Of a DNA stretch of 64,000 nt, positions 22,608 through 52,449 are shown piece after piece. The first letter of the stretch is position 1. The number at the start of each line of letters is the position of its first letter. A program made the translations under genes and the position numbers. Source of the stretch: Balanoglossus misakiensis (taxonomy: Eukaryota; Animalia; Hemichordata); contig CM082586.2 of the NCBI GenBank assembly GCA_040954595.2, positions 2,485,124 to 2,549,123 on the forward strand, given 5' to 3'. Below the pieces are notes generated by a model. It was not told the origin of the DNA, searched no databases, and was given only the letters and a program-made list of their open reading frames with translations.

Positions 22608-23068
22608 CTTGATGAATTTCTTTCACATGTAAATAACCAATCTTAGAGGTGTGAACGACTTGATTTTGATGCAAATTTGTATTCACCTCTACTTAGTTTC
22701 TTTCGGGAGATACCATTATGTGTGTTATGTGAAAGAATGCTGCTGAACCCAGGGGTGTGCTGGTACATAATTAGGGTGAAGTACTCCGCAAACGTACTTA
22801 TTCTTTTGGATCTTGTGGGAAAGTATGTGGCAGACGACAAACGAGACAAAATGAAATATTCACAGTGTACAAAGCACGGTGACTGAGTGAAAAGTCATAT
22901 ATTCGCCTGGGGTTATTCACCCCCGCAACTCCATGGTTCTCTACCCTTTCAAAAGGAATGGTTTTATTTACTAGTAGTCACATGATATTTGGGCGCAGCC
23001 ATATTGAAATATCGAAAAAATATCTTGGCGAAACTGTCTCCATAAAATTAGGTATATTTGAGCCAAAG
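22608..23068. promoter_or_regulatory. Probable bidirectional promoter: minus-strand leader exon (donor at 22607) and ATP6V1H 5' end
   Basis: A minus-strand AAG|GTAATG donor at 22608/22607 lies ~460 bp from the ATP6V1H ATG. Inferred from geometry only. Confidence 0.45.
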
Positions 23069-26000
23069 ATGTCGTACCAACGACTTGAGCATGCAATCCA
23101 AGGAAGCCTTGATGCCGATGGAGAAGATCCCGGCAAGAATTTACAAACTGCTACAAGTCTTTTAGCGGCACAGGCCAATGAAGTACGGGCACATCGGGTG
23201 AACTGGCAATCATATCTACAGTGAGTGAATTTCATCATATTGTAATTATTACACTTATATTAACATTTGTATTTTAAATGTTTTAAAATATTGTCATATA
23301 TATTCTCACCAATGTTATAAAAAGAACACAATAATTGTGAGATGTATTGGTTAAAATTGTACCCAATAAGGTAGCTGGTGTATCCGAGCTACTACTTTAT
23401 AGTGGGTTATATTTGTCAGATCAATGATCATATTTGTATTTGTATAATTGACTATGATTTGATATATATTCCTGTCTGATTATGATTTGTATATATTCAT
23501 TCGTGTTTCTCATCTTATTTTTCTCTTCAATATAGGGCCCTGAGCAGGTATACTCCCAAAGTTATTTATAAACGTTATATATGTTCTGTTTCTCTAACTT
23601 CCTACCAGCATGTACACAATTATGATAATCGTTGATTATTAATAGTTAGAGGTTCATGTAGAGGATGATTTAGAGGTACATTGGTCATACACTCATTTCA
23701 TCTCCACCACACACAAAGCTGCGAAGTCTACATATCCACCATCACTGAGATGTATGGGCAGCATTGGCCGTTTTATCATGATCATTTCCATGGGCAAATC
23801 TTTCGTCTATTTCATATTCACTTCCCTGTTGAAACATCTAACTCTTTAGAACAAATCTGATGTTATAACCTAGTAAATTTTGCTCTGATCTCTTCTAATA
23901 TTACTACAGCACAATATAAGCATCTTTGTAAGCACAAAACTTGGGGATTATTTTGCCATAAATACAAGTTCAATGTGAAATCAAACAGGCCATTGTCAAA
24001 TTGCTGAAAACAACCTTACACTGTGTGAATTTATTGCACTCTATTTTGAGTGATCATATTGCTGAAAGAGATGTGTCAAAATTGAAATTTGCTCTCAAAG
24101 ATTTGTCTGACATGGAATATAAAACAAAATGGGGTGATCCCTGCTGATAAGCTTGTCTGCTTTACCCTCTGTACACCATTGATATCACTGGTGACCATGG
24201 TGATGGGAAAATGTCTAAGGACTAAAGCAATCTATGCTCATTATGGGGCTAACTTTGTACCTGTTTATTAGTATTAAATAATGCATGTTAAACGATTCTC
24301 TTTGGTATTTGGTCGGGGTTATTTAACTTTTTTACTGAATATTTCTATTGTGGGATTTTAGGTAAGGTTTATTGCTATAAATATGCAATGACAAAACTAG
24401 TTATCAAATTTGCTGAGAGCACTCACATGACTCACGGTGTCCACAAGTCTAGGGTAGTTTACGCAAAATAGCAATTTCAAGTTCTATACTTCAACAGTCA
24501 CTAGTCTTTTTGCTGTAATGTTCTTTTCTGAATATGTTAAATTTCAAGGTGAATATCTTATAAAATGTCTACAGTAATACTTATGAACTTTAACCTCTTG
24601 ACCTTTCACACTTGCCCAGACAGAGAACTGCAGTTGTAACAATACTCAGTGTTTTTTAATGGTTCTGTTAATACTTTTAATTCAGTAATTGTTTTAATTT
24701 AAAATTGAGAATTTAAAGGAAAATAATTAAGCAAAAATTTGTTTAGGTGATAATTCATGTTGTGCCATTCCATCGTTCAGGAATAAATAATTCATTGTCA
24801 AATACACTTTTAAATAAAAAGAATTCAATGTAAATGCACTTAAAATTGTGGTAAAAGAAATCTTGAAAAACATAAAATAAATGTCTGATTGAAAAATGTA
24901 ACATTTTATCCTTGAAAATGTAAGCGGTATATGTGTCATATAATATTTTCTTCTAAGTTTCTTTTTAACAGAATTTTCAAATTATCAGAATGTTGATGTA
25001 CTCTTAAGAACCTGAACAGAGCTGTAACACATGATGTATATGATTTTACCAACAGAGGGCAGATGATCTCGCAAGAAGAATTCACCTTCATTCGTGAATT
25101 CGACAATGCCACCAGCCCCGAGCAGCGCGACCAGATACTAAAGCGCCATGGACCGTCCGCTGCAAAGATCTTCCTCAGTCTCATGGGTCATATCTCCAAA
25201 GACCAGACTGTGCAATACATTCTGACCATGGTGGATGATATGCTGCAGGTAAGAAATCTTAAATACAGTCAAAGATATTTTCCTAGTTCTTCCACTTTCT
25301 TGATATAATTCCTGTATTTTTATTTCAATACAGGAAGATCATGACAGAGTGTCCATATTCTTCGAACATGCCAAGAAGGCTAAGACCACGCCCTGGGGTC
25401 AGTTTCTGAATATGCTGAACAGGCAGGATAAATTTGTTATCAACCAGGTGAGTATAGTAATAGGGCAATAAACTCTAGTAATTTCCATGGTCAGTCCATC
25501 AGTGAGTGTTTATTGCCTATTCTGAAACATAAATAATCTTTATCCCTACTGCCATCAGGCTGGTAGAGTGATAGCCAAGCTGGCTTGTTGGGGTAAAGAG
25601 AAGATGGGAGGAAATGATCTGAACTTCTACTTTTCCTGGATTCGTGGTCAGCTGACTGCCCCTGGTAACGACTACCTGTGTGCATCAGCTGGGTGTCTTC
25701 AGATGATCCTTAGGTATAATGTCTACAGAGAGGCGTTCATGGAAACAGAAGGCCTGGGAACGTGAGTATAAGACAGGGTTGAAAAGAGCATGGAGATATG
25801 CAGTGATGAACCATACAGTTCAAAGAGTGTAGTGCAGACTTAAAAAAAAACATTTGTCTTTTTTGAATGTGTGATTCATCATTTCATGTGACATTGTAAT
25901 TCATTTCAGATTGGTGTCGGTGCTGGCGACTCGCTGCGGTTTTCAGATCCAGTATCAGCTGACGTTCTGTATTTGGATGTTGACATACAACGCCAAACTT

Positions 26001-30157: not shown

Positions 30158-33100
30158 CTACGCAAGTGCATTGGCTGAGGTGGTTGGACTTGATGTCTTC
30201 GCATCTGTGTCAACTTTACTCTTTTTGGCAGCGGGAACAGCTCCATCTTCTACGGCTGTGCGTTTCTTCCGCACCCTGAGGTCCTGGCTCGGAACCCGAG
30301 AGCGGACCACATTCCTGCCGTAGCCAACCCTGAAGGAGTTTCCCATCCCCAAGCTCTCCAGGCCGCCGACCTCGCTCTGGAATCTCTTCCGGGCCGACGC
30401 TGCCCCCCGGGCGCTGAACATCCCGATGGTGCTCCACTTCTGGACGAACTCCGGGATGTGGAATACCAGGATGTGGAACTCCAGCGTGATGGCCGGCATG
30501 TGAGCTGGAAGCCAGTAGCCCAGATCCCAGCACAGCTGACACAGGGTGTTGACCTCGCTGTTCCGCAAGAACCGTTTCAGACTGACCAGTCGGTTGATGC
30601 CCGAGAGCTGAGTGAAGACCTCGTGGAACACATTTCTCTGTTCCTCGTGCCCTGCCAGCAGCTTCACAAAGACATCCATATGCAACAGCATGCTCAGGAC
30701 CTGCTGGCGACTCAGCTGAACCGAATCCAGCGACGCGGCCCCAAGCGCCAGTTTCTCCTTGGAGACTCTCACCAGCTCCTTCACCAGAGGCCCTTCCTTG
30801 TCGGCCATCTCCAGCTTCTTGAAGATTTCCGCTTTGTGAGCAAGCTTGTTCTCCAGCTCGCAGTAGCTGGCCTGCAGCTTCTCCGCCTTCTCCGTCAGCT
30901 CGTCCAGAACCGCATCAGCCGAACTCCCAACACCACGGCAACCGACACACTGGAATGGCTGCTTCTTGACCTCCGACTGAGACTGCAGCAGGCTGGCGCA
31001 TGATTTGTGGAACTGCTTGGAACACTCGTGGCACCTCATCAGCGGGACACTCCCCTCACTCTCTATGCAGACAACATTCATGCAAGAACCTTTCTGACCC
31101 AACCCCTTCTTCTTCATTCCCAGGTATCTCTTGACAGCTTGTTGCTTATCGGTGATGGTCAAGAAATCCTGTTTGATAACCTCCAGGTCTGACTTTGTTT
31201 CTCGCATTTCACTCTGCACTTGCGCCCTTTCTGCACTATTGAACTCAAATTTGGACTTGACCCTCTCAGCATTTTGCCCCTCTTCGATCACATCCAGTAA
31301 CCTGCACTCCTTGTACAACAGCGAGAAGACCAGATTCCCCACGCTCGTGATGATGTGATCTACTGGGGGCACGCGCTGAACGTTAGGGACAGGGAGGAGG
31401 CCCTCATCGACAATACCAAAACCCATACTGGGGGGGACGGCCGGGCGTCTGGCCGCGAACGTACACGCATGGTACGGCTCCCAGGTCTTGTCATCCTCTG
31501 CCAGTTGGTAGGGAGTGTGGGGCAAGCCGTATTTGAGACTGCGGAGACACACCATGCACCATATGCAAGGGTGAGTGGCAGACCTGCCCTCGTGACCGAT
31601 GGAGTCGCAGAGAAACTCATACTCCCCTGCACAGAACACTCTGACTGCTGTTTGCTTCGGACCTTGGGATTCTTGGCCTGTGAGCAGACCGATGGTACCC
31701 TTGCGGGGCACTTGTAACTTCTCTTGGAGGCCCCGCTGGAAGATCATTTCTGCATTACCACGGCTGTAGTTTGCTTCGACATAACCTAGAAGGCGGTCGC
31801 CGACCTTGACCTTGCTGTTCACGACCTTCGCTGTCAGGGTCATGCTCTTGTTGTGGCTGAGGGCAGAAATCTGCATCCAGACTGATTTGTCCGGGAAGTT
31901 GGTGGGCTGGAAGACGATCTTCTTGTCCACCACGGCCACCTGGACGATGTCTGATATTTCTTTCTTGATGGCCTTGACTTTGAAGTACCTGACAGCAGAG
32001 AGCTCTGTGGCGGTCTTGGTCAGTGATAACATCTCCATGCCAATTTCAATCGCTCTTGGTGATGAGTCTACATCACCTTTAAAGACACAAATAAAATAGG
32101 TGATGTGTTATTATTATTATAGTGTATGAACCAGGCACTGAATGATGAGTGCGCTAGCAAAAACGTTGGATGAAATACTTACAAAGTGTTGCATATGGAG
32201 TCTTCTTCAGTGATGGGAAAATCTTGATTCCGTTGTGAACAAGGGCTTGCTTCAGTCTCTGAAGTTTGGTGCGGTTCAGATTCAGCATCATTTTCAGATC
32301 AGCTGTCTGGCGTTTTGTCAGTTCTGAGGAAAAAGAAAGCGAAAATTGTTCAAGGATCAACGTATGAACATCTTTCCGTATTTTTCCATTCTCTATTTAA
32401 AGTCACGTACATATGGATGAATGGACAGCAGTGTTTCAAAATGGCGGCCAGTAAGCGCTGTTGTCCCTGACAACAGCGTGAACTTACTCTGGAGACGAGT
32501 GGATGTGCCTGCACTCTGGTATGCTTTCTGAAACATCTTATGATTCCTACTGATGAACATCCTCAGAGAGGCCAGAAGATCTTCCTCTTTGACAACTGCA
32601 CCACCTTCTGATGACACACACTTCCACATCTGACAAGAACAAGAGATGTAAACATAAACAATGCACTTTACACGGACACATATTTTGTTGACAAACTACA
32701 TTTGTTATACATGCCAAAATATTTAGTTATATTATATAAGTTACAGTTATTCATCCATTTAATGAAAAAAATTTACTCACATGTTCAATACACTGCACCT
32801 TGCTTTTGACTGGTGCATTCTTTGCATATACAGCTTGAATCCAAAGCTTATCATTGTATAGACTGCTGACGGCCCCATACTGCCGCAACTTCACTTGTTT
32901 GTCGTTCAGGGACCAGCGAATAATCTCTGCCAATTTCTTGTCCGAGGTCTTTTTGCTGACTTCTTTCCAGGACGCAGTCCTCTGTGAGAGCTGATGAAAT
33001 ATGAACATACAGAGACTCGTTAGTGAAATTAAGTCGACTGCCCTCTATTGGTGAGAAGATCCACTTCCCTTGTTTAAGAGGATGGTGACTATGTGGAAAA

Positions 33101-34789
33101 TTTCACACTGATGGCCAGATTGGCCAGGACAATACTGATGGTGTATTTCAACACTTCCAGTCTACCACTATTCATTGTAACACCTTCACCAGCCCCCTTT
33201 TCATAAGTCTACCGCCATCAGGCAGCCATCATGAATTTGAACTCAAAGCGAGGCCAATGGGGAAAGTTGACCAATCACATCAAGGGTGTTTCCCCCATTC
33301 GCCTCGCTGTGAGTTAAAATTCATGAGGTCGCTATTAGTAGACTTATGAAAATGGTGTATCTCGACGAGATTTTCCTACCTTAACGGCCAAATCGTTGAT
33401 ATGCTTGTCAGCTGCCACAATAGCACTGGAAACAGTGCTTTCATAACTAGATGTACTTGAGGCACTCAGGCTGTCTTTCCAATCCTTCCGGGCGAAAAAG
33501 TTGGACTTCTCCATCTGGATTCGCAGACGCTCCTTGGCTGACACCTGCTGTCGCTCTTTCTCCTTCACCCGAGTCTTGAGTTCCTTGAGTTGTTCGAAGA
33601 GCGCTGCCGCATGCCTGTTCTTGGTGTCTTCCAGAGTGGACAAGGCTTCTCTCTTCTCTTTCTTGAAACCCTTGGACATATCCATGTTGGTGATCTTCAG
33701 CTCAGTGATCTCGCATTGCAGGTCAGTGATCTCGGCCCGCATGTCGCGAATCATGACCTGGCCGTCACTGATGTCCAACTGGGCTGCCTCGTGCCTGGAT
33801 TCCAGCCGTTCCAGTTTTCCCACTAACGCTGTGACCCCGTTACTCACCATGTCCAGGTTCTTCTTCACAGACTTGATTTCTCTGCTACTTTTTAAGGCTG
33901 AAACGGTGCTCTCCAGGGCAGCAGTGATTTTCTTCTGCAGCATCTTCCCATCTATCCGTTCCTCCTCATCCTCCTCCTTCTTCTTCTCCTCTTCCTCCAC
34001 AGCATCTTCTCCGTCTCCCTCCTCCATCTTTACCACTGGACCTTCAAATTGTTCCTTTTTCACTTCACTGATCGTCACGTTTCGACGTAGCCGTTCCAAC
34101 GACTGTTTCAGACGAGTGTTCTCCTCCACCTGCGCCTGCAGCTTCTTTTGCAAGTTCAAACATTCTTTACACGTGATGACGTACACGTCAATGTCATATG
34201 GTGGAGAGTCATTCACAACTACAACCTGGCAATTGGAGATACAATCAAAACAGAGAAAGTCTTGTAAAATACTTATTGGAGCTCTTGAAAAAAACAACTG
34301 CCTAGTGATATCATAAAACAGACACCAAGTACAGTTTTCAGAAGTTGATCATTTACACTTCATAATGCCGCAAGAAAACGTAAACAACTGAACACTGCCA
34401 CGCCTATAAATGCAGATACAACCTTCCACTTACAGACTCTAGAGGGCGTTACTTTCGTGTAGGGAAATGTTACATTCTCTGAATTTTCCAAGCGAAATTC
34501 GAGCAATGTGCGTGATTTCAGTTTTGAGTTGTGACGACATTTTCATCATCAGATCCACAAGACGACAATCCTCGATTTTCAGAAACAAAGTCACCGCCGA
34601 TCGCTCATTACGGCCTCGTTCAGCGCTGCACGCATGTTTACAGGATATCAAATCAATGCCGATTCAGCTGGGCTCCCTCGAGGCGAAACTAGAAGTCCCT
34701 CGTTTCGAACTATGCGAAGTGATCGAGCTACTTACCCATCCCGGGCGATCTTCCGGGTTATCGGGAAGCTGTAGGTGGATGTCTTTCAT
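30158..34789 (-). CDS. Domesticated RAG1/Transib/Chapaev-like transposase-derived protein with N-terminal coiled coil and inserted PHD finger; 6 exons (34789-34736, 34225-33380, 32990-32781, 32629-32488, 32323-32183, 32076-30158), ~1103 aa
   Basis: Exons splice GT-AG in phases 0,0,0,1,1 into a 3312-nt open frame. Motifs: LTKRQTADLKMMLNLNRTKLQRLKQALVHNGIKIFPSL (resembles the RAG1/Transib segment just before the RNase H fold); VFCAGEYEFLCDSIGHEGRSATHPCIWC (DDE second-Asp region plus CxxC); PPVDHII; ITLEFHILVFHIPEFVQKWSTIGMFSARGAAS (HxxxxH Zn ligands plus third-Glu region, cf. RAG1 [32 protein letters not shown]); C4HC3 finger at 31084-30938. Confidence 0.8.
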
Positions 34790-44000: not shown

Positions 44001-44490
44001 GACAGGTCTTGACAGGTTGATTGAACCTCTGAGGGCCACCTGCACCACCAAGGTCAAGGCCAACTCTGTGAAACAGGAGTTTGAGAAGCAGGATGAGTTG
44101 AAGAGATCTGCCATGCGAGCTGTAGCTGCTCTGATGGCTATCCCAGACAGTGGTGAGTTGAGAGTGACTGTAGTTGGGGTCTCAGAGTTCATTATATTGA
44201 TCTTGATATATGATGTAGGAGTATCACTGGTGAACCTGAGTTCAGAGTTCATAGCGTTGAATGTCAAGTTGAATTTAGTTCAAGCTATATAGTTCACAGC
44301 TTTTGTGAATTTTTGCTGAACTTCCATTCACGTTGTCTTGTTCATCTTTTTTCCTCCAGATAAAAATCCACTGATGAATGAATTTGTCTCCCAAATCCGG
44401 TCGAGTCCTGAAATGTCTACCATGTTTGATAGTATTCAGAAAGACGCAGCGGCCAGTGTTAGCACCGACTCAATCATGGACACCAGTTAA
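35091..44490 (+). CDS. CAND1: Cullin-associated NEDD8-dissociated protein 1 (HEAT repeat), ~35 short exons
   Basis: [154 protein letters not shown]; stop TAA at 44488-44490. Confidence 0.98.
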
Positions 44491-45584
44491 ATATTCAAGA
44501 ATACACTGAATAATAATTCAAAGACACATACACAATTGGGTGTAGTGTATACCAGTTATTGGAAGAATAATACCAATTTTGGGTGCTCTTTACTTGTACA
44601 GGCTATTGTAGTGATGATGGTGTCCAGTGTAATAACTGACACATAGTCAGTTTGTATTGCTTAGCTTCTGAAGCTTCTAAGATGTTAGTTCTTCAAAATC
44701 GTGACCTCGTTGTTCCTCTCCGTCAGTGTCAATTTTCCAGCCCCCGTTTCAAATTCAGCAGAAATTGATGAATTGTTGGCATTAATGAACTTTGATTTTT
44801 TTTAAATTTGAAATGTGGTTGCTTTGAGTGGGCAGGAACCCTTGAAAAATGTCTACCGCATCTGATATTCAGTAAGCTAGGTGGCATTTCTAGTTCTGTG
44901 GGCTGATTGGTCCAGCACTGCAAGAATGTTGAGGTATCCTGAATTAAGGCTGTGTTGGTTTTTCACTCTGGTAATGTACCGGTATAAGGTAACGAGTTGT
45001 CAGAAAAGGTCAGGTTGAAATGTACAAGCACAGCGCCCTCTACAGCCATGTGACCAAACATACAGAACATCGCCCTCACAAGACCGATCTAAACAAGTTT
45101 ACATTACCATCTGCTCATCAAATTGCAAGGAGAACTCGCCTGTAATTGAGGTCATAACTTTAACGTAGACATGCTTGGTTTTTCTCTAATCATATGTTTA
45201 ATACAGTATTGGAAGTTTTATCTAGGCCAGCGAAGGCTGCAATTTTTTTCACCAAGGAGTTGTACAATAAGTTCTTAGAACATAGAATGGAAAAGTGAAT
45301 TCCAGCGCCGTAACAAAATGTTACTTTGTTTCCCAGAGTTGAAATAAACCACTCAATGAGAAATGAACTGGTATGTGTGTATGAAAGGCATTTAGTTGTG
45401 AAAATGTGAGACTGAATCAACCAGGGTTTTATTGAAATTGTGTAATTGTGTGTACTGATTATTATTGTACTGATCGCAATTGAAATACAGTAGCAACTTG
45501 GTAAAAACTTGGCCAAAGTGGTTTCCTCAATATATCTGTTGTTGAAGAGGGTTCTGGCCCCTTAGTTCTAGCTCCATGGTCAAA

Positions 45585-46441
45585 CTATATTTCATACTCG
45601 GTCTTATTTAGTTCTATCCAGTTTAGAAACTTTGTAGTGAAGTCTTTATGTGCTACTAAATCTAACAAGGTGTCGCTATCTGCTTCTGCATCGTGGGAAG
45701 ACGCGTCATATACATACTCCAAATGATTATCACAGAGATCGGCGAGAGTGTGGCTCTCATCTGGTAAAGTTTTCTGGAAAAACAACAGACTATCAGCGGC
45801 GTATAAACTACAGTCGCTCAAACCCGGAATTTCTATTTTATCCACCTCTCTCTTCAGTATTTTGAAATCGAAATTGTCGCCGGCATGAGCGACCAAGCAG
45901 ATTGGCTGCACCTGCCGCAAGAGAAAGCATTTTATGGACATGATCAAATTCTGGTCCGTCTCCTGTTTGCCGTACTTTTCCAGTAGCTCCTTGCTCAGAC
46001 CCGTCTTTTCCTCCGTCCCGGAAGCAACTTGTTTTCTTGGGGCGACGCACATGACAAGCTTGTCTTGAACACGCGGGGTGACACCTTCAGCCGACGCTTT
46101 GGTAAAAGCCTTCCTGGGCACGGCGATCATGGCTATTTCGGTCATGTCTGGTATTTTCTTCCTGTTCGGACAGGGAAGCGCGGTGGCCTCTACATCGAGG
46201 AACACAAACGTTTGCGTAACTGTGCTTGTTTTATCTTTCTCGGCTGTGCTCGTTTCTTCTTGTTTCTTTTCTTCAGTTTTGACCTTCTATAGGGTTTAAG
46301 CAGAAAACATTGCCTATTCTATGCAGTTAGGTGTCAAACTGAAAAAAAAAAACATCTTTCGTTTTCAACTTTTTGCGATTTCCGTCACGTTGTTTCACCA
46401 TAATCATCGTTACTTACTTGTTGGCGATTTCTACGGCCCAT
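45585..46441 (-). CDS. TREX1/TREX2-like DEDDh 3'-5' DNA exonuclease with intact active site; exons 46441-46418 and 46286-45585, ~241 aa
   Basis: ExoI TFVFLDVEATAL, TREX-typical PRVQDKLVMCVAP, ExoII PICLVAHAGDNFDFKILKRE, ExoIII SHDAEADSDTL. First exon MGRRNRQQ ends at a CAA|GTAAGT donor. No C-terminal TM tail. Confidence 0.9.
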
Positions 46442-48016
46442 ACTTTAATCATGTGACACGGTGCGAATCGTCTCGGAAATCTGTTGGAGCAATATAAACA
46501 ATGGTTACAGTCATGCCAGATTATATAGTCTATATAAACAAAGTATAGACCTAATAAAGATAAACCATGAACGGTGCAAAAGCATCGACACGTCAGATGT
46601 GGATATAATACGGTAGAGCGTGACGCTAAATCATAATTGTTCTTCAGTACATTTTAATATATTTTTCATATATATAGTTCTATGCTGACAAAACTTAAGT
46701 ACGCGAGGGACTCACCTTGTTTGAAGGGCGTATTTTTGCTATACGCAGATTCAACTGAATCAGTCAAAGTCCAGTCGTGTACGGTCGCTCACAATGGTGT
46801 TACTACCAAGTATCTGCGCACCTGTACGTGTATGGAGAAGTCGCGTATATTAAATCTAACACATTCTAAATTAACTTTTTATATATGGTGGAAACGACCG
46901 AATTCTACAGAAATAAACACAGATATGAACAGTTAAACGGAAATCATAACATACAATTCTATATATGGTCATGTGTATACGTGGCTACAATGATACACAT
47001 ATCTCTGGCTCTGTGAATTCGGCGAATCTGCAGATGGTCGTCGCTTTGTAAGGGTTAAAGGTCAGGTTCCTCATAACTCACAATGTCACACATCTACACA
47101 TTTTTCCACCATCTCGCTATGGCCCACAGCCCTCCCACCGACACTCAGTCCTGTGTCTTTTATGAAAAAAATACGTTTATATGAACCCAAAATATGAATT
47201 AAAAAATCGCCACTATGTGAGTAGCATGGACTCCATGGTGAGTAGCGACACTGGGGCACCTCGTGACTTCGACAGTCCATTCGCCATTTCAAAAATCAAA
47301 ATTATTTCAGCTGTAACAGATTCCAAAAACGTACGATTGGCCATTCAGTTCAAACGCTTCGATTTTGTACTTCACAGAAACGTACTTACCAGTAAACGTG
47401 CGATATGTCGTAATGATTATTGACTGTAAGCATCCATGTCATCCGAACGATGGTACAGAATTGTATGCGCAAACAATGTCGTATCTATTTATAGACTTGT
47501 ATGCGTAATTAGGTCAGTTCCACGGAAATCATCCCAGGTGTGCATTGTCTCTGCAGTGTACCGAGAACTCGCGTTCCGCGAAAGGACCAGGATCATTGCG
47601 CGTGCGCAACAGGTGGTTGTCACTGTTACGAAGATGGGGGCCCGGGGGACGGATGTACACATATTTCGCTGCTCAATGGACTGAGTGAACCATCTACTTT
47701 ATATCGCAGTCTTAGACTAGTATCTTTACATGGGAGTGAAAAAAGAGGAATAAAAGTACAATACTTGCCAGCACCACAAGGAATACTACCATAAGCTTTA
47801 TAAAAAAAAGTTGTTAAAACATGACAACATTCACCCGAGAAAAGAAGTCTCAACCAAAACATTTCAACTGACACTAATGGCCAAAACGTCATCAACACAA
47901 ATGTCTCATAACATGTACAGGTGATAAAAAGTGATTAATAGTATTATTATAGAGTCACGATTAACAATAACATTATAAATGTATGTTACATGTATTTTGG
48001 TTTTATATAATCTGTT

Positions 48017-49201
48017 CTACAACCCAAAGACCTTTTGTGCCAAGCCTGGATCTTCGCGCTGCAAATGGCTTCGAATCTCCACCATTTTGAGTCCTTGTTC
48101 TATGACACTGCGTGGGTTTCCTTTCGGAATGAAGTAGCCAGCGGTGTGCATGACAACGAGGTTTCCTCTGTCGTCGAATCCAGGACTGCCGGATGATCCT
48201 TGAAGGAAGGAAGACTGATAGACCGTTCCATCGGGTCGCGTTAGCGCAACCCTCAGCGTTTCGTTCTCCCAATTTGTATCAATGGTGTTTCCGTAGAAAG
48301 AGTAGTTGGCCGACATTGCCAGTTGAACCGAGGGGTCTTCGATAGGATTCTGACTGATCGCGCATCGAGGATCGATGCGCTTTGGTTTGCCCCCAGGATG
48401 GCCTATGAGCGCTATGTATGCTCCTTCGTCTGAGGGTGGCGGGCCGATCAGTGTATCCAAGCCAGGAGGAAGGAGAGGAGGAAGGTGGTTCTTCTCCAAT
48501 TCACAAACGGCATAATCCGGATTGTCATTCATGCATCTGATATGTGTCACCCTTACACAATGGTGATTTTCTCCCGCCGTTTCTTCGTAGTTGAAACACA
48601 CGATGAGATGGCCTACCAATGCTTGTCTTATTTTTTCCATGTCCGTGACGCCATTTCCACATATCAGTTGCAAGACGTGAAAATTAGTGATGAAGAAATT
48701 GTCGCCTACTCTGAAACCACTTCCCAGCGCACTATCAACGCCAGCTCTTTTTATGAGGCCCACAGAATTACTGTATTCTATCAATCGTTTCATGTGCGAA
48801 ATACTCAAGGTGGTGTCGTTAATATAGGCTAGCTTTTGCTGCCACATTAACTGTTTTTCATCTGTTACTTTTCCTATCCCCGGCCGCATCTTCTGCAGCT
48901 GACGACCGGCTGGAGTTCCCTCTGCACTATCTTCAGGGAAGTACTTTTTGAATCTCGGATCACTTAGCAGATCCATCTTGGGAAGTTTCGTCAGTATCTC
49001 TTTCATAGCGCTCCAGTATCCACCGGGAAAGGGATGTGATATAATCAACTTTACTAAATCATCAATACTTTCCGCCTTTTCGAGTCGACCTGCGGCAACT
49101 TTAAATCCGCTCAAGTATGTCTTAACTCTCCTTATATCTGTCGTTTCCAATTCATCAAATAATTGAATCAAATCTTCCTTGGAACTCGAATCATCTGCCA
49201 T
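48017..49201 (-). CDS. Death-fold (DED/PYD-like) domain fused to a FAM111-like trypsin-family serine protease, single coding exon, ~394 aa
   Basis: The N-terminal ~85 aa show the death-fold helical pattern (LIQLFDELETTDIRRVKTYL...RLEKAESIDDLVKLII...YWSAMKEILTKLPKMDLL). The C-terminal part has the triad TNFHVL / DYAVCEL / GSSGSP and FAM111 hallmarks SNSVG, FNYEE, LIGHPGGKPKRID, FDDRGNLVVMHTAGY, SVIEQG. Confidence 0.85.
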   Translation of the reverse strand: MADDSSSKEDLIQLFDELETTDIRRVKTYLSGFKVAAGRLEKAESIDDLVKLIISHPFPGGYWSAMKEILTKLPKMDLLSDPRFKKYFPEDSAEGTPAGRQLQKMRPGIGKVTDEKQLMWQQKLAYINDTTLSISHMKRLIEYSNSVGLIKRAGVDSALGSGFRVGDNFFITNFHVLQLICGNGVTDMEKIRQALVGHLIVCFNYEETAGENHHCVRVTHIRCMNDNPDYAVCELEKNHLPPLLPPGLDTLIGPPPSDEGAYIALIGHPGGKPKRIDPRCAISQNPIEDPSVQLAMSANYSFYGNTIDTNWENETLRVALTRPDGTVYQSSFLQGSSGSPGFDDRGNLVVMHTAGYFIPKGNPRSVIEQGLKMVEIRSHLQREDPGLAQKVFGL

Positions 49202-50935
49202 TATATGTGTTGAACTGTGAAATAATGTGAAATAAAGCTTGCTGAAATTATATGTCAATCTAAGGGCGTCAAGTCCTGGGGCACTCTTCCCGGTCCTTGT
49301 GTAGGGTAGGGGTCAGAATTCTACATTTTGGCCAAATACTGATGTCTAAAATCTACATTTTCTAAAATGATGTGTCAAAAGTCTACGTCTACTCAACTAA
49401 ATATGGCCGATGTGCATAACGCCACCATACGACTGACATGGGCGCAAAATACGTCCCAAGACAAAATATACCGACCATTGATCATTTTACTGTGTGTTTA
49501 TAGAATGACAGCTCAATGGTAAATCTAACGACCACTTAAGTTCTTATACTAATAGTGATAGAAAGAGGTCAATGCGTGAACTCGTGGAACCGGGTCTATG
49601 GTAAAACATTCTAGCAAAATCACTTTGATGCTATGCCCCGTGTGTGGGAGCTCTGTCTGGTCATGTCAGCGTTTACAGTTACACTGTGGTCCGTGGTGGC
49701 AGGCGTAATATATTATCCTACTTATGAGGAGGGCGGACACTTCTTTAATAAAGACTACGACCCGCCATATTGTAATCACCCTATTACCATGCAGTTTTTT
49801 TTCAGCGAAACTAAAGTGAAAGTAAAAGTGATGTGTGTTTATTCCCATTGTAGATCGACTGAAAAGCATCTCTTCTTTGTACAGGCCATTACCATCAAAA
49901 CAGTGGAAGAGAAGAAATGATAGACCGTCAAATCTTACGCAGGAGTGATCAACCAAGCCTAGCTAAGTCACGAAAACACCTACCTTGTCGAATCGACCTT
50001 TCATATCGCTACATGTGCACAGCGAATTCCGAACAACAACACCTGCGTTGGCACCAACCTCATTGATTAGTTTTCACACACAATGTCATACAGCCGCATA
50101 CACATATCGCATACAACAGGTACATTGGCATTTCACGAAATAGACTAAGTTGAGGTGTTTAATTGCCAAGTCTTGAAAGCTATCATATACAAAACATGAT
50201 CTAACTCCAAACAAGGTAAAACTATAAGTAACACGTGTACATTTGATAACGCTATGTCCCAGTTTAATACTTACATTCGACAAAAGACTGTATTCCGTGC
50301 AATGGTGGTGTCTCTATGATGTCTCGATCAGGGACCGACGCGGTGCCTTCTCAGTGTGTTCCAGAAAAAGAGAACTACTCGACAGGAGTAAAGGTAATAT
50401 AAAGCTTAAGCCTAAGGACATCATGTCTATAAATAGACGCATTACGTACACTGTTCACGTGACGCTTCAGTAGCTATTGGGACACCAACACCAGGTTTTA
50501 TTTCAGTCAATCAATCAATCGCCCAGCCTATCTCGCTATTTGTCGAGTAGACGTGACATTACAGGTTATCATGGCTTCAAGGCATGTATATGTTTAGACC
50601 AATACAAATCATATGATTCATACGTTTTTTGTATGACACACCTTTTCCAATGAAACTAAAGTGAAAATGAAATTGCCATTAAGCTTTATTTATAAGCGTA
50701 TATACACACAAAAACACATATGTAGTACAGTCATTGTAGGGAAATTGCACGAGATCTGGAGAGTGACATAAATTGCAATTTATGTAATTGTTTTATCGGG
50801 CAACATGAAGGAAGTGATCACATCTAATTTTTATGTACGCGTCAAGATAAGCTTAGGCATTTTTTTTCAAATGCTGACTGCTAATACACTGTAGTATCAA
50901 CACACATGTTACATTCACACCACTCCGCGGCAGTT

Positions 50936-52449
50936 TTACGTGTTTTTGGAGGCGCTGAACATTTGTGCGTGGCTATCGGCCCATGCAAGAAACTCTTTCT
51001 TCCAAGGGTGGTGAAATGCCAGTCTGAACAGTATTTTAGCATCTTTTGCAGCGCACCAACTTTGCTGAGTCCCGAGATATTTCCTGGCCAGTGCGTCCAA
51101 TGAGCGTGGCTTTTCTGGCTCCGTTTCCCTGAAGAATTCCAAGGAATCAACCGACCTGACTTTGGGCAGTTTTTCTGCAACTTTGTAGAATTCATTGCGC
51201 AGGATGGGGAATTGAAAAGCGTTGCCGTTGTGAGCCACGAGGCAAACCGGCGTGGGGAGTCTCTTCAGAAATGACGTGATTACTGTGTATGTCTCTTTGT
51301 CCATGGGTTTGAAGGCTGAGACGTGATGTGCGTCGATCTGGTGGTGTTCCCTGGCGGTGGGTTCGATCGGCTGTTTCGGGGACATGCAGACAACGAGACT
51401 GTTTGTGATGCGTGGCTTTCGGCCGACAGGTGGTGGCCTACTTTGCATTTCTTCTCTGGTCACCGCGAGAAGAGCCAGTTCGATGACGTCAGGCTTCACA
51501 CTGGGGTCGTCGTCACTGATCAAACCCGTGGTTTCCATGCAGAGAAACACGAATGTTTTGTGTCGTGGCATGACGAGCTAAGAGAAAGAAACCATAAGCA
51601 ATGTGAATAAGACGTTCTCTGTACACATTGATGATTTTCACAAGAGGAAATTAAAAGACATAACTCCCCTTTTATATCAGTTGCTCTTTTACCACAAACT
51701 TCAAACCGTTTTACCACAGTACATAGATTTCCTTACCGATTCTTCAATACCCGTTGGGGTTCCTACAGTCCCGGATGTTGAATCTGTAAAATATTGTCTC
51801 CCTATGTCTCCGAAACCTCGTCGGCTTCTGCGTAAAGCTGCAGTCCATGCACAGGGCAGGTTCAACCTTCCATTAAAATGAAACCGTGAATTTAAAAAGA
51901 CATAAATAGCATCCAGATGATGATTATGATGGATCGATGATTTGCTCGGGAAAATCAGTCTTATTCAAGTAATTCTTCGGACACAACAAATATATTTAGC
52001 GACAATTTTTTTTGGTCACAGAAGTAACAGGCGAATAAATGCAGTTCGTGCAATCAGTTCGTCTGTCGAAATGAAATCCACATAATTGATCGATTTGATA
52101 GTACGTACTTCGACCTCAGTAACTAAGACCACAAAACTCCCATTTAGTTTTCATACTGACACCATGCTTAGGTAATTTGTGTGTGTTGTATAATCATTGA
52201 CACACAGTGTTGGCGTTTTGCCAATTTCGCGCACTTTGAAGTATATGATCGTTGCAAATTTCTGTGCGTGTCCTGACAAGATTTGAAGACTTTTGTCGCC
52301 AGGTCATACTCGACAAAAAATCTTAATTCTGTGGGACGCTCGAAGCGCGATTACGCAGATTGTCACTTAGAAAACTCAAGTATTTAACATAGCCATTACC
52401 TTGGTAACATGGGAACCAAATTTCGTCGGACAATGCTAGTCGTTGCCAT
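50936..52449 (-). CDS. Catalytically degenerate TREX-like protein with putative mitochondrial presequence; exons 52449-52400, 51866-51737, 51577-50936, ~273 aa
   Basis: TREX fold is kept (TFVFLCMETTGL, PRITNSLVVCMSP, PVCLVAHNGNAFQFPILRNEF, VDSLEFFR) but ExoI D>C, ExoII D>Q, and the ExoIII His is lost (SWCAAKDA). Two upstream exons splice in frame from an aaccATGg start. AATAAA on minus at ~50690. Confidence 0.82.

What the first reader, a model, noticed from the sequence alone, without database searches (positions are those of the whole stretch)
45585..52449. Compact three-gene cassette: active TREX exonuclease, death-fold-FAM111 protease, dead TREX; a candidate animal DNA-defence or cell-death module
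Seen: three co-oriented, intron-poor genes within 7 kb, in a neighbourhood of intron-dense housekeeping genes, with two TREX paralogs bracketing a death-fold protease. Established: TREX1 removes cytosolic DNA upstream of cGAS-STING; FAM111A is a protease that restricts DNA viruses; death folds nucleate immune and death complexes. Inference: the arrangement resembles a defence-island or guard layout, with a nuclease, a dead nuclease acting as DNA sensor or decoy, and an oligomerisation-activated protease effector. I know of no description of this linked set.
Basis: partly seen in the sequence, partly recalled or inferred. Interest (0 to 1): 0.88.

Follow-up and report, generated by a model that had tools for sequence, protein, structure and literature searches.

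The report
Pyrin protease between twin DNA nucleases
In an animal that is likely an acorn worm, a FAM111-type protease gene tipped with a pyrin-like domain (a domain reported as absent from invertebrates) sits between a TREX DNA-nuclease gene with an intact active site and a copy that has lost its cutting residues, a trio that likely also lies together in a related worm and may form an unstudied DNA-defence cluster.

Summary
The three minus-strand genes are real. TREX-A keeps all five DEDDh residues. TREX-B lacks three of them, as does its Ptychodera flava orthologue (59% identical). The middle gene is a FAM111-family protease with an intact His-Asp-Ser triad. Its N-terminal domain is pyrin-like and replaces FAM111A's PIP/ubiquitin-like region; a 2024 survey found no pyrin domain outside Craniata. 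Transcript contigs cover the genes separately, spliced for TREX-A and the protease. In P. flava the orthologues lie on one 40.3-Mb contig with near-consecutive accession numbers, an indirect sign of linkage without coordinates. In Glandiceps two of the genes share a contig but are 250 numbers apart. New: contigs from one sample join across a 2,208-base gap that removes the whole protease coding exon, so a second haplotype likely lacks the protease. Likely mechanism: pyrin-driven clustering switches on a dimer-dependent protease, while the TREX pair likely sets how long stray DNA persists. Coupling between the genes rests on linkage alone; bystander synteny is nearly as likely. The pyrin-FAM111 fusion is the solid novelty, the guard module a hypothesis. 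New variant of a known kind; interest 0.64.

The parts
45186..46821 (-). TREX-A gene: 5' exon about 46821-46716, exon 46480-46418 (start Met at 46441), last exon 46286-45186 (stop at 45585); 241 aa, all five DEDDh residues, no hydrophobic C-terminal anchor
   Evidence: 57-59% identical to P. flava P0027 and Glandiceps P0026
47695..50356 (-). Pyrin-like domain + FAM111-family protease gene: non-coding exon 50356-50275, one coding exon 49214-47695 (CDS 49201-48017, 394 aa)
48920..49201 (-). N-terminal six-helix pyrin-like (death-fold) domain, about residues 1-90
   Evidence: PYRIN E 0.038, below the cut-off, for this protein; orthologues pass the cut-off; hemichordate-only profile hits NLRP4 PYD E 1.5e-8; top 7 VIA rows are pyrin domains or NLRP chains, Z 5.9-6.7
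48020..48814 (-). FAM111-type trypsin-fold protease domain; triad H175, D229, S337; alpha-1 helix positions M137/K138/I141 match FAM111A V347/K348/V351
50675..51588 (-). TREX-B gene, last exon (CDS 51571-50936, 211 aa): TREX fold with three of five catalytic residues replaced, basic (pI 9.2); upstream exons not confirmed
47590..49797 (.). 2,208-base segment holding the whole protease coding exon; contigs of runs X1 and X3 join across it (non-splice ends): likely presence/absence difference between haplotypes
   Evidence: table 5; junction pieces not repeated elsewhere in the window
49962..50586 (.). 625-base segment holding the protease's first exon; an X1 contig skips or replaces it (letters between not known)
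   Evidence: table 5

Best explanation
This is a cluster of three separately transcribed genes, likely conserved among acorn worms, in which a pyrin-like domain likely switches on a FAM111-type protease by clustering it, while an intact TREX nuclease would clear stray DNA and a catalytically stripped TREX would likely slow or tune that clearance, so that the three likely serve one DNA-triggered defence pathway without needing to bind each other. Shown: gene models, catalytic residues, the domain swap, separate transcript contigs, orthologues of all three. Inferred from relatives: FAM111A needs dimerisation through helix alpha-1 for activity, that helix's key positions are kept here, and death folds activate effectors by induced proximity (my odds for this step about 0.65). 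A separate pyrin-bearing sensor or adaptor would nucleate the protease; acorn worms encode such proteins (pyrin-pyrin, pyrin-DED, pyrin-like + TRAF-like, pyrin-like + GT4). Inferred from linkage only: that the TREX pair and the protease act in one pathway. The likely haplotype without the protease fits a costly, dispensable immune effector.
For: Intact triad and FAM111A fold. Alpha-1 positions M137/K138/I141 match V347/K348/V351, which FAM111A needs for activity. Pyrin-like N-terminus; no PIP-box pattern in 4 of 4 such proteases. The four hemichordate proteases with this domain form one clade, 100/99. The same domain is joined to TRAF-like, DED and GT4-conflict domains in hemichordates. Death + Trypsin_2 proteins in a mostly cnidarian cluster of 90 and bacterial EAD-trypsins are the nearest Atlas clusters. 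TREX-B orthologues are as conserved (59%) as TREX-A orthologues (57-59%) and are stripped at the same three positions; 73 of 75 metagenome TREX relatives keep the ExoII Asp and none has Gln. P. flava accession numbers 084, 095, 097/098, 099/100 share one contig, while its two non-pyrin FAM111 records lie on another. Dominant dead TREX1 alleles compete with active enzyme on DNA (PMC8047136).
Against: Linkage in P. flava rests on accession numbers and contig length, not coordinates. Glandiceps numbers are 250 apart and no Glandiceps TREX-B was returned (1 hit among 156 candidates). None of 75 metagenome TREX loci holds a protease or death-fold neighbour, though most are short. TREX-B does not keep the R128 DNA contact or the D65/K66 positions. 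No induction or co-expression data: all three runs are one sample. The window's own domain is below the Pfam PYRIN cut-off, P0001 has no PYRIN hit, the domain model is weak (pLDDT 61) and its Z-scores are in the range the tool calls common.
Confidence: 0.4

Rival explanations
1. Bystander synteny. The pyrin-FAM111 protease is a real immune-type effector and the TREX pair an old tandem duplication, but they are neighbours by history and work in unrelated pathways.
For: Looser spacing in Glandiceps; accession order in P. flava does not reproduce the bracketing; the protease duplicates (two in P. flava) and is likely deleted on one haplotype while TREX-B stays; separate transcripts.
Against: Both families have vertebrate roles in DNA-linked antiviral defence. 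In P. flava the two pyrin-type FAM111 records sit by the TREX genes and the two other FAM111 records do not.
Confidence: 0.35
2. Direct guard or decoy module. TREX-B binds DNA or a viral TREX antagonist and physically triggers or restrains the protease.
For: TREX-B is conserved, dead and basic (pI 9.2 and 9.7 against 5.0-6.4 for the three active cores); the trio is compact and likely linked in P. flava; bacterial nuclease-trypsin conflict systems give an analogy.
Against: TREX-B carries no death fold and lacks R128; TREX-B appears on the haplotype that lacks the protease.
Confidence: 0.15
3. Genome maintenance. The protease removes DNA-protein crosslinks as FAM111A does and the TREX proteins trim DNA ends; the helical domain is only a docking module.
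For: FAM111A protects replication forks; TREX-A lacks TREX1's membrane tail and has a basic N-terminus.
Against: The PIP/UBL region is replaced by a pyrin-like domain; P. flava has other FAM111 genes without that domain; a haplotype likely lacks the gene.
Confidence: 0.1

Closest known systems
Human FAM111A/FAM111B (PDB 8S9K; PMC10920703, PMC10931937)
   Same: Trypsin_2 domain with the FAM111A fold, intact triad, alpha-1 dimer helix positions kept.
   Different: PIP box and two ubiquitin-like domains are replaced by one pyrin-like domain (two copies in P. flava P0001); 394 aa against 611.
Vertebrate pyrin domains (NLRP, ASC, AIM2) and pyrin-caspases of zebrafish (the latter recalled)
   Same: Six-helix death fold whose best sequence and structure matches are pyrin domains, placed N-terminal to a protease.
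   Different: Found in a non-vertebrate, where PMC11508797 reports none; the effector is a serine protease, not a caspase; filament formation untested.
Bacterial EAD/bDLD-trypsin effectors and the NucA-trypsin conflict system (PMC7159879, PMC8195603); Death + Trypsin_2 Atlas cluster of mostly cnidarian proteins
   Same: [quoted passage not shown]
   Different: The nuclease there is an HNH-type endonuclease in an operon; here DEDDh exonucleases in separate animal genes. Analogy, with no homology of the system shown.
TREX1/TREX2 (PMC9314330, PMC8047136)
   Same: DEDDh fold; TREX-A keeps all catalytic residues; R62 and R114 positions are kept in both paralogues.
   Different: No C-terminal membrane tail; TREX-B is a naturally conserved pseudonuclease, whereas dead TREX1 forms in the papers read are disease alleles.

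Membership tests
FAM111 protease family | Trypsin_2 domain closest to the FAM111A protease domain | tested here: met
   PDB E 1.6e-20; Foldseek ranks 1-6; VIA Z 29.5 against 20.0 for the next
FAM111 protease family | His-Asp-Ser triad | tested here: met
   H175, D229, S337
FAM111A proper | N-terminal PIP box and ubiquitin-like domains | tested here: not met
   No PIP-pattern match; the N-terminus is an all-helical domain; vertebrate hits carry PF26749, the hemichordate hit P0001 does not
FAM111A proper | Dimerisation-dependent activity | not testable with these tools
   Helix positions are kept; activity not measured
Pyrin domain (PF02758) | Pfam gathering score | tested here: inconclusive
   Window protein 14.6 bits against 22.9; P0031 28.7 and P0035 25.9 pass; 4 of 6 hemichordate-named hits pass; P0001 no hit
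Pyrin domain (PF02758) | Closer to PYD than to DED, CARD or DD | tested here: met
   Hemichordate-only profile: NLRP4 PYD E 1.5e-8, ASC PYD 7.8e-7, best FADD DED 0.24, no CARD or DD up to E 1
Pyrin domain (PF02758) | Six-helix death fold by structure | tested here: inconclusive
   VIA top 7 rows are PYD or NLRP chains, Z 5.9-6.7, rmsd 2.9-3.6, 70-84 aligned, on a pLDDT 61 model; Z under 8 is common
Pyrin domain (PF02758) | Homotypic filament formation | not testable with these tools
   Needs experiment
Active TREX exonuclease (TREX-A) | D18, E20, D130, H195, D200 | tested here: met
   All five present
Active TREX exonuclease (TREX-B) | D18, E20, D130, H195, D200 | tested here: not met
   Cys, Glu, Gln, Trp, Asp; P. 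flava Ile, Glu, Gln, Trp, Asp
TREX1 proper | Hydrophobic C-terminal ER anchor (recalled) | tested here: not met
   Highest 19-residue hydropathy 1.0-1.5 in 5 of 5 proteins, none at the C-terminus
Guard/decoy or defence-island module | Linkage conserved across lineages | tested here: inconclusive
   Near-consecutive accession numbers in P. flava; 250 apart in Glandiceps; no coordinates
Guard/decoy or defence-island module | Physical or genetic coupling of sensor and effector | not testable with these tools
   Needs experiment
Guard/decoy or defence-island module | Co-induction on challenge | not testable with these tools
   Three runs of one sample, contigs only

The most novel reading that the evidence does not exclude
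Acorn worms have a caspase-free, inflammasome-like branch: pyrin domains older than vertebrates nucleate a FAM111 serine protease, and a linked TREX nuclease / pseudonuclease pair sets or senses the DNA signal that fires it, the effector segregating as a presence/absence polymorphism. It would be an animal counterpart of bacterial nuclease-trypsin conflict systems.
Probability: 0.2. Interest if true: 0.9.

Novelty: new variant of a known kind. Interest (0 to 1): 0.64.

Why it matters
Two parts matter even if the three genes prove unconnected. A pyrin-like domain family in hemichordates would move the origin of the inflammasome's pyrin domain back to early deuterostomes, against a published survey. 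A pyrin-FAM111 fusion is a death-fold protease that is not a caspase, and FAM111A's known need to dimerise makes an induced-proximity switch directly testable. If the TREX pair is coupled to it, this would be a compact invertebrate DNA-defence module with a natural pseudonuclease, and animals with and without the protease would supply a natural knockout.

Tried and rejected
Complex prediction of TREX-A + TREX-B + protease: no answer, ipSAE 0.00 twice, alignments not used; not evidence either way. No genome is held for the window, so paralogues elsewhere and the second haplotype could not be read directly. No RNA holder was listed; X3 is read as RNA only because its contigs skip canonical introns. 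Depth hint only: X1 bins over TREX-A and the protease are about 28 against a flank median of 61, and no second contig at 90% or more was listed over TREX-A; with no joint across it, loss of TREX-A on the second haplotype is not claimed. Foldseek on the N-terminal model: no match at E 0.001 or better. Atlas on residues 1-97: no usable hit. Fusion or read-through between the genes: no listed X3 contig joins two of them (tables were cut). ATG 52449 as TREX-B start: rejected for the 2 splice paths tried. Recent retro-insertion of the protease: rejected, since it has a 5' intron and orthologues in two other acorn worms. Decaying pseudogene for TREX-B: rejected. The 2,208-base joint as an intron: rejected, its ends are not splice signals on either strand and it stands in a DNA run. 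Profile A4 held a fish pyrin domain, so it was redone with hemichordate rows only. P0034 was dropped from the 11 profile hits as a repeat artefact in a UDP-glycosyltransferase. PADLOC gave only weak generic hits. No protease or death-fold neighbour in 75 metagenome TREX loci. dN/dS was not computed: no orthologue DNA. Paper searches listed nothing on this fusion or linkage; only listings were seen for most, subscription papers are not covered and no supplements were opened (domain-architecture tables of PMC8195603 could hold such proteins).
Full report
Observation. The three ORFs exist at the stated places on the minus strand. TREX-A and TREX-B match mouse TREX1 (E 2.9e-30 and 1.6e-23) and the middle ORF matches the FAM111A protease domain (E 1.6e-20; VIA Z 29.5). 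No further copy of either family lies in the window. The closest named relatives are from Ptychodera flava and Glandiceps talaboti, so the animal is likely an acorn worm; this is inference, as no genome is held.

Gene models. Run X3, listed as 'DNA?', has contigs that skip canonical introns in CAND1, TREX-A (two) and the protease (one), so I read it as RNA. The three genes lie on three contigs of 1,270, 1,630 and 916 letters. The TREX-A and TREX-B contigs end about 10 letters past a poly(A) hexamer. TREX-A is 241 aa from a Met at 46441. The protease is 394 aa in one coding exon. TREX-B's contig shows no intron; the ATG at 52449 is out of frame in both splice paths tried, leaving the Met at 51571.

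The TREX pair. By TREX1 numbering (passages of PMC9314330), TREX-A keeps D18, E20, D130, H195 and D200. TREX-B replaces D18, D130 and H195, and the P. flava orthologue replaces the same three. A and B are about 30% identical to each other and 57-59% to their own orthologues, so the duplication is old and the dead copy is as conserved as the live one. Among 75 metagenome TREX relatives, 73 keep the ExoII Asp, 2 are interrupted there, and none has Gln. TREX-B is basic, TREX-A acidic, and neither has a hydrophobic tail. Both keep the R62 and R114 positions; TREX-B does not keep D65, K66 or R128 (TREX-A here also lacks R128), so DNA binding and dimer formation by TREX-B are open.

The protease. 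The triad is intact, and the helix through which FAM111A must dimerise to be active (passages of PMC10920703) keeps matching residues. FAM111A's PIP and ubiquitin-like region (passages of PMC10931937) is replaced by a helical domain of about 90 residues. A two-sequence profile of it found 11 proteins among 1.84 billion: the seed P0001, six more hemichordate proteins, two fish pyrin proteins, one unnamed DED/Death protein and one artefact. Seven of the ten new hits pass the Pfam PYRIN cut-off. A profile of hemichordate rows only finds NLRP4, ASC, NLRP6, NLRP12 and NLRP3 pyrin domains first (E 1.5e-8 to 5e-4) and FADD's DED at 0.24. The structure search agrees but is weak: top 7 rows are pyrin domains or NLRP chains at Z 5.9-6.7 on a pLDDT 61 model, and Foldseek gave nothing significant. 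The window's own domain is under the Pfam cut-off. PMC11508797 (passages) states that there is no PYD outside Craniata. The four hemichordate proteases with this domain form one clade (100/99; 27 rows, Glandiceps row partial). The Atlas places the P. flava orthologue next to a mostly cnidarian Death + Trypsin_2 cluster and bacterial EAD-trypsins, so adaptor-plus-trypsin is a recurring design.

Linkage in relatives. P. flava: XP_070534084 (two domains + protease), 095 (active TREX), 097/098 (dead TREX), 099/100 (one domain + protease), all on a contig of 40,314,384 bases; its two other FAM111 records are on a contig of 50,649,872. That RefSeq numbers broadly follow gene order is recalled, not tested; consecutive numbers for unrelated proteins are hard to explain otherwise, but the order and spacing are unknown. 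Glandiceps: XP_077989841 (TREX) and XP_077990091/092 (truncated pyrin-protease record) share a contig but are 250 numbers apart, and no TREX-B was returned.

A likely second haplotype without the protease. Contigs in X1 (depth 34.8) and X3 (depth 25) join 47589 to 49798, removing the whole coding exon; another X1 contig skips or replaces 49962-50586, which holds the first exon and ties the joined form to TREX-B's flank. X1 contigs identical to the window cover the protease at depth about 27, while TREX-B is covered by one contig at depth 52 with 21 differences. The joint's ends are not splice signals, and the junction pieces are not repeated in the window. All runs are one sample and the tables were cut, so a paralogous locus or a mixed sample is not excluded. 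Orthologues in two other species suggest loss on that haplotype, not gain on this one.

Mechanism. Most likely the pyrin-like domain clusters the protease when a separate sensor or adaptor nucleates it, which would drive the dimer-dependent switch; overactive FAM111 proteases shut down replication and cause apoptosis (PMC10931937 passages), and FAM111A restricts DNA viruses (abstract starts). TREX-A would clear DNA. TREX-B would likely dampen clearance, as dominant dead TREX1 alleles do (PMC8047136 passages). Joining these two halves into one pathway rests on linkage alone: 0.40 for a shared pathway with indirect coupling, 0.35 for bystander synteny, 0.15 for a direct guard, 0.10 for genome maintenance.

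Comparison and novelty. It works like a death-fold protease effector, and the layout echoes bacterial NucA-trypsin and EAD-trypsin systems (passages of PMC7159879 and PMC8195603). It belongs to the FAM111 family by its protease domain but is not FAM111A proper. PMC12066828 (passages) added nothing. Ten paper searches listed no description of the fusion or the linkage; no supplements were read. Earlier scan notes held nothing on this locus; two notes on another protease family in bivalves were seen and not tested.

Verdict. Observation confirmed; interpretation partly supported; new variant of a known kind; interest 0.64.

Noticed in passing
window 30161-32107 (-) and 33347-34348 (-): A GC-rich block (54% at 30-32 kb) with a 649-aa intronless ORF bearing a PHD finger and a coiled-coil-like 334-aa ORF, between two housekeeping genes; looks like a DNA transposon (recalled resemblance to Transib/RAG-type transposases, untested).
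   Followed up: partly
P0032, P0033, P0037, P0038: Hemichordates join the same pyrin-like domain to a GT4-conflict glycosyltransferase, a second pyrin domain, a DED and a TRAF-like protein: a possible adaptor network.
   Followed up: partly
window 47427-47589 and 49798-49961: The joined form that lacks the protease is present in an X3 contig of 961 letters, most of it unlike the window, so the other haplotype may be transcribed there and may carry different sequence.
   Followed up: no
window 44478-45186: CAND1 (+) and TREX-A (-) end tail to tail; X3 contigs stop about 80 bases apart.
   Followed up: no
window 22883-25305 (+): Exons that read like V-ATPase subunit H (recalled; the one exon scanned gave no Pfam hit).
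   Followed up: no
ESM Atlas: A 90-member, mostly cnidarian cluster with Death + Trypsin_2 (87% and 99%) may be a parallel death-fold protease family.
   Followed up: no
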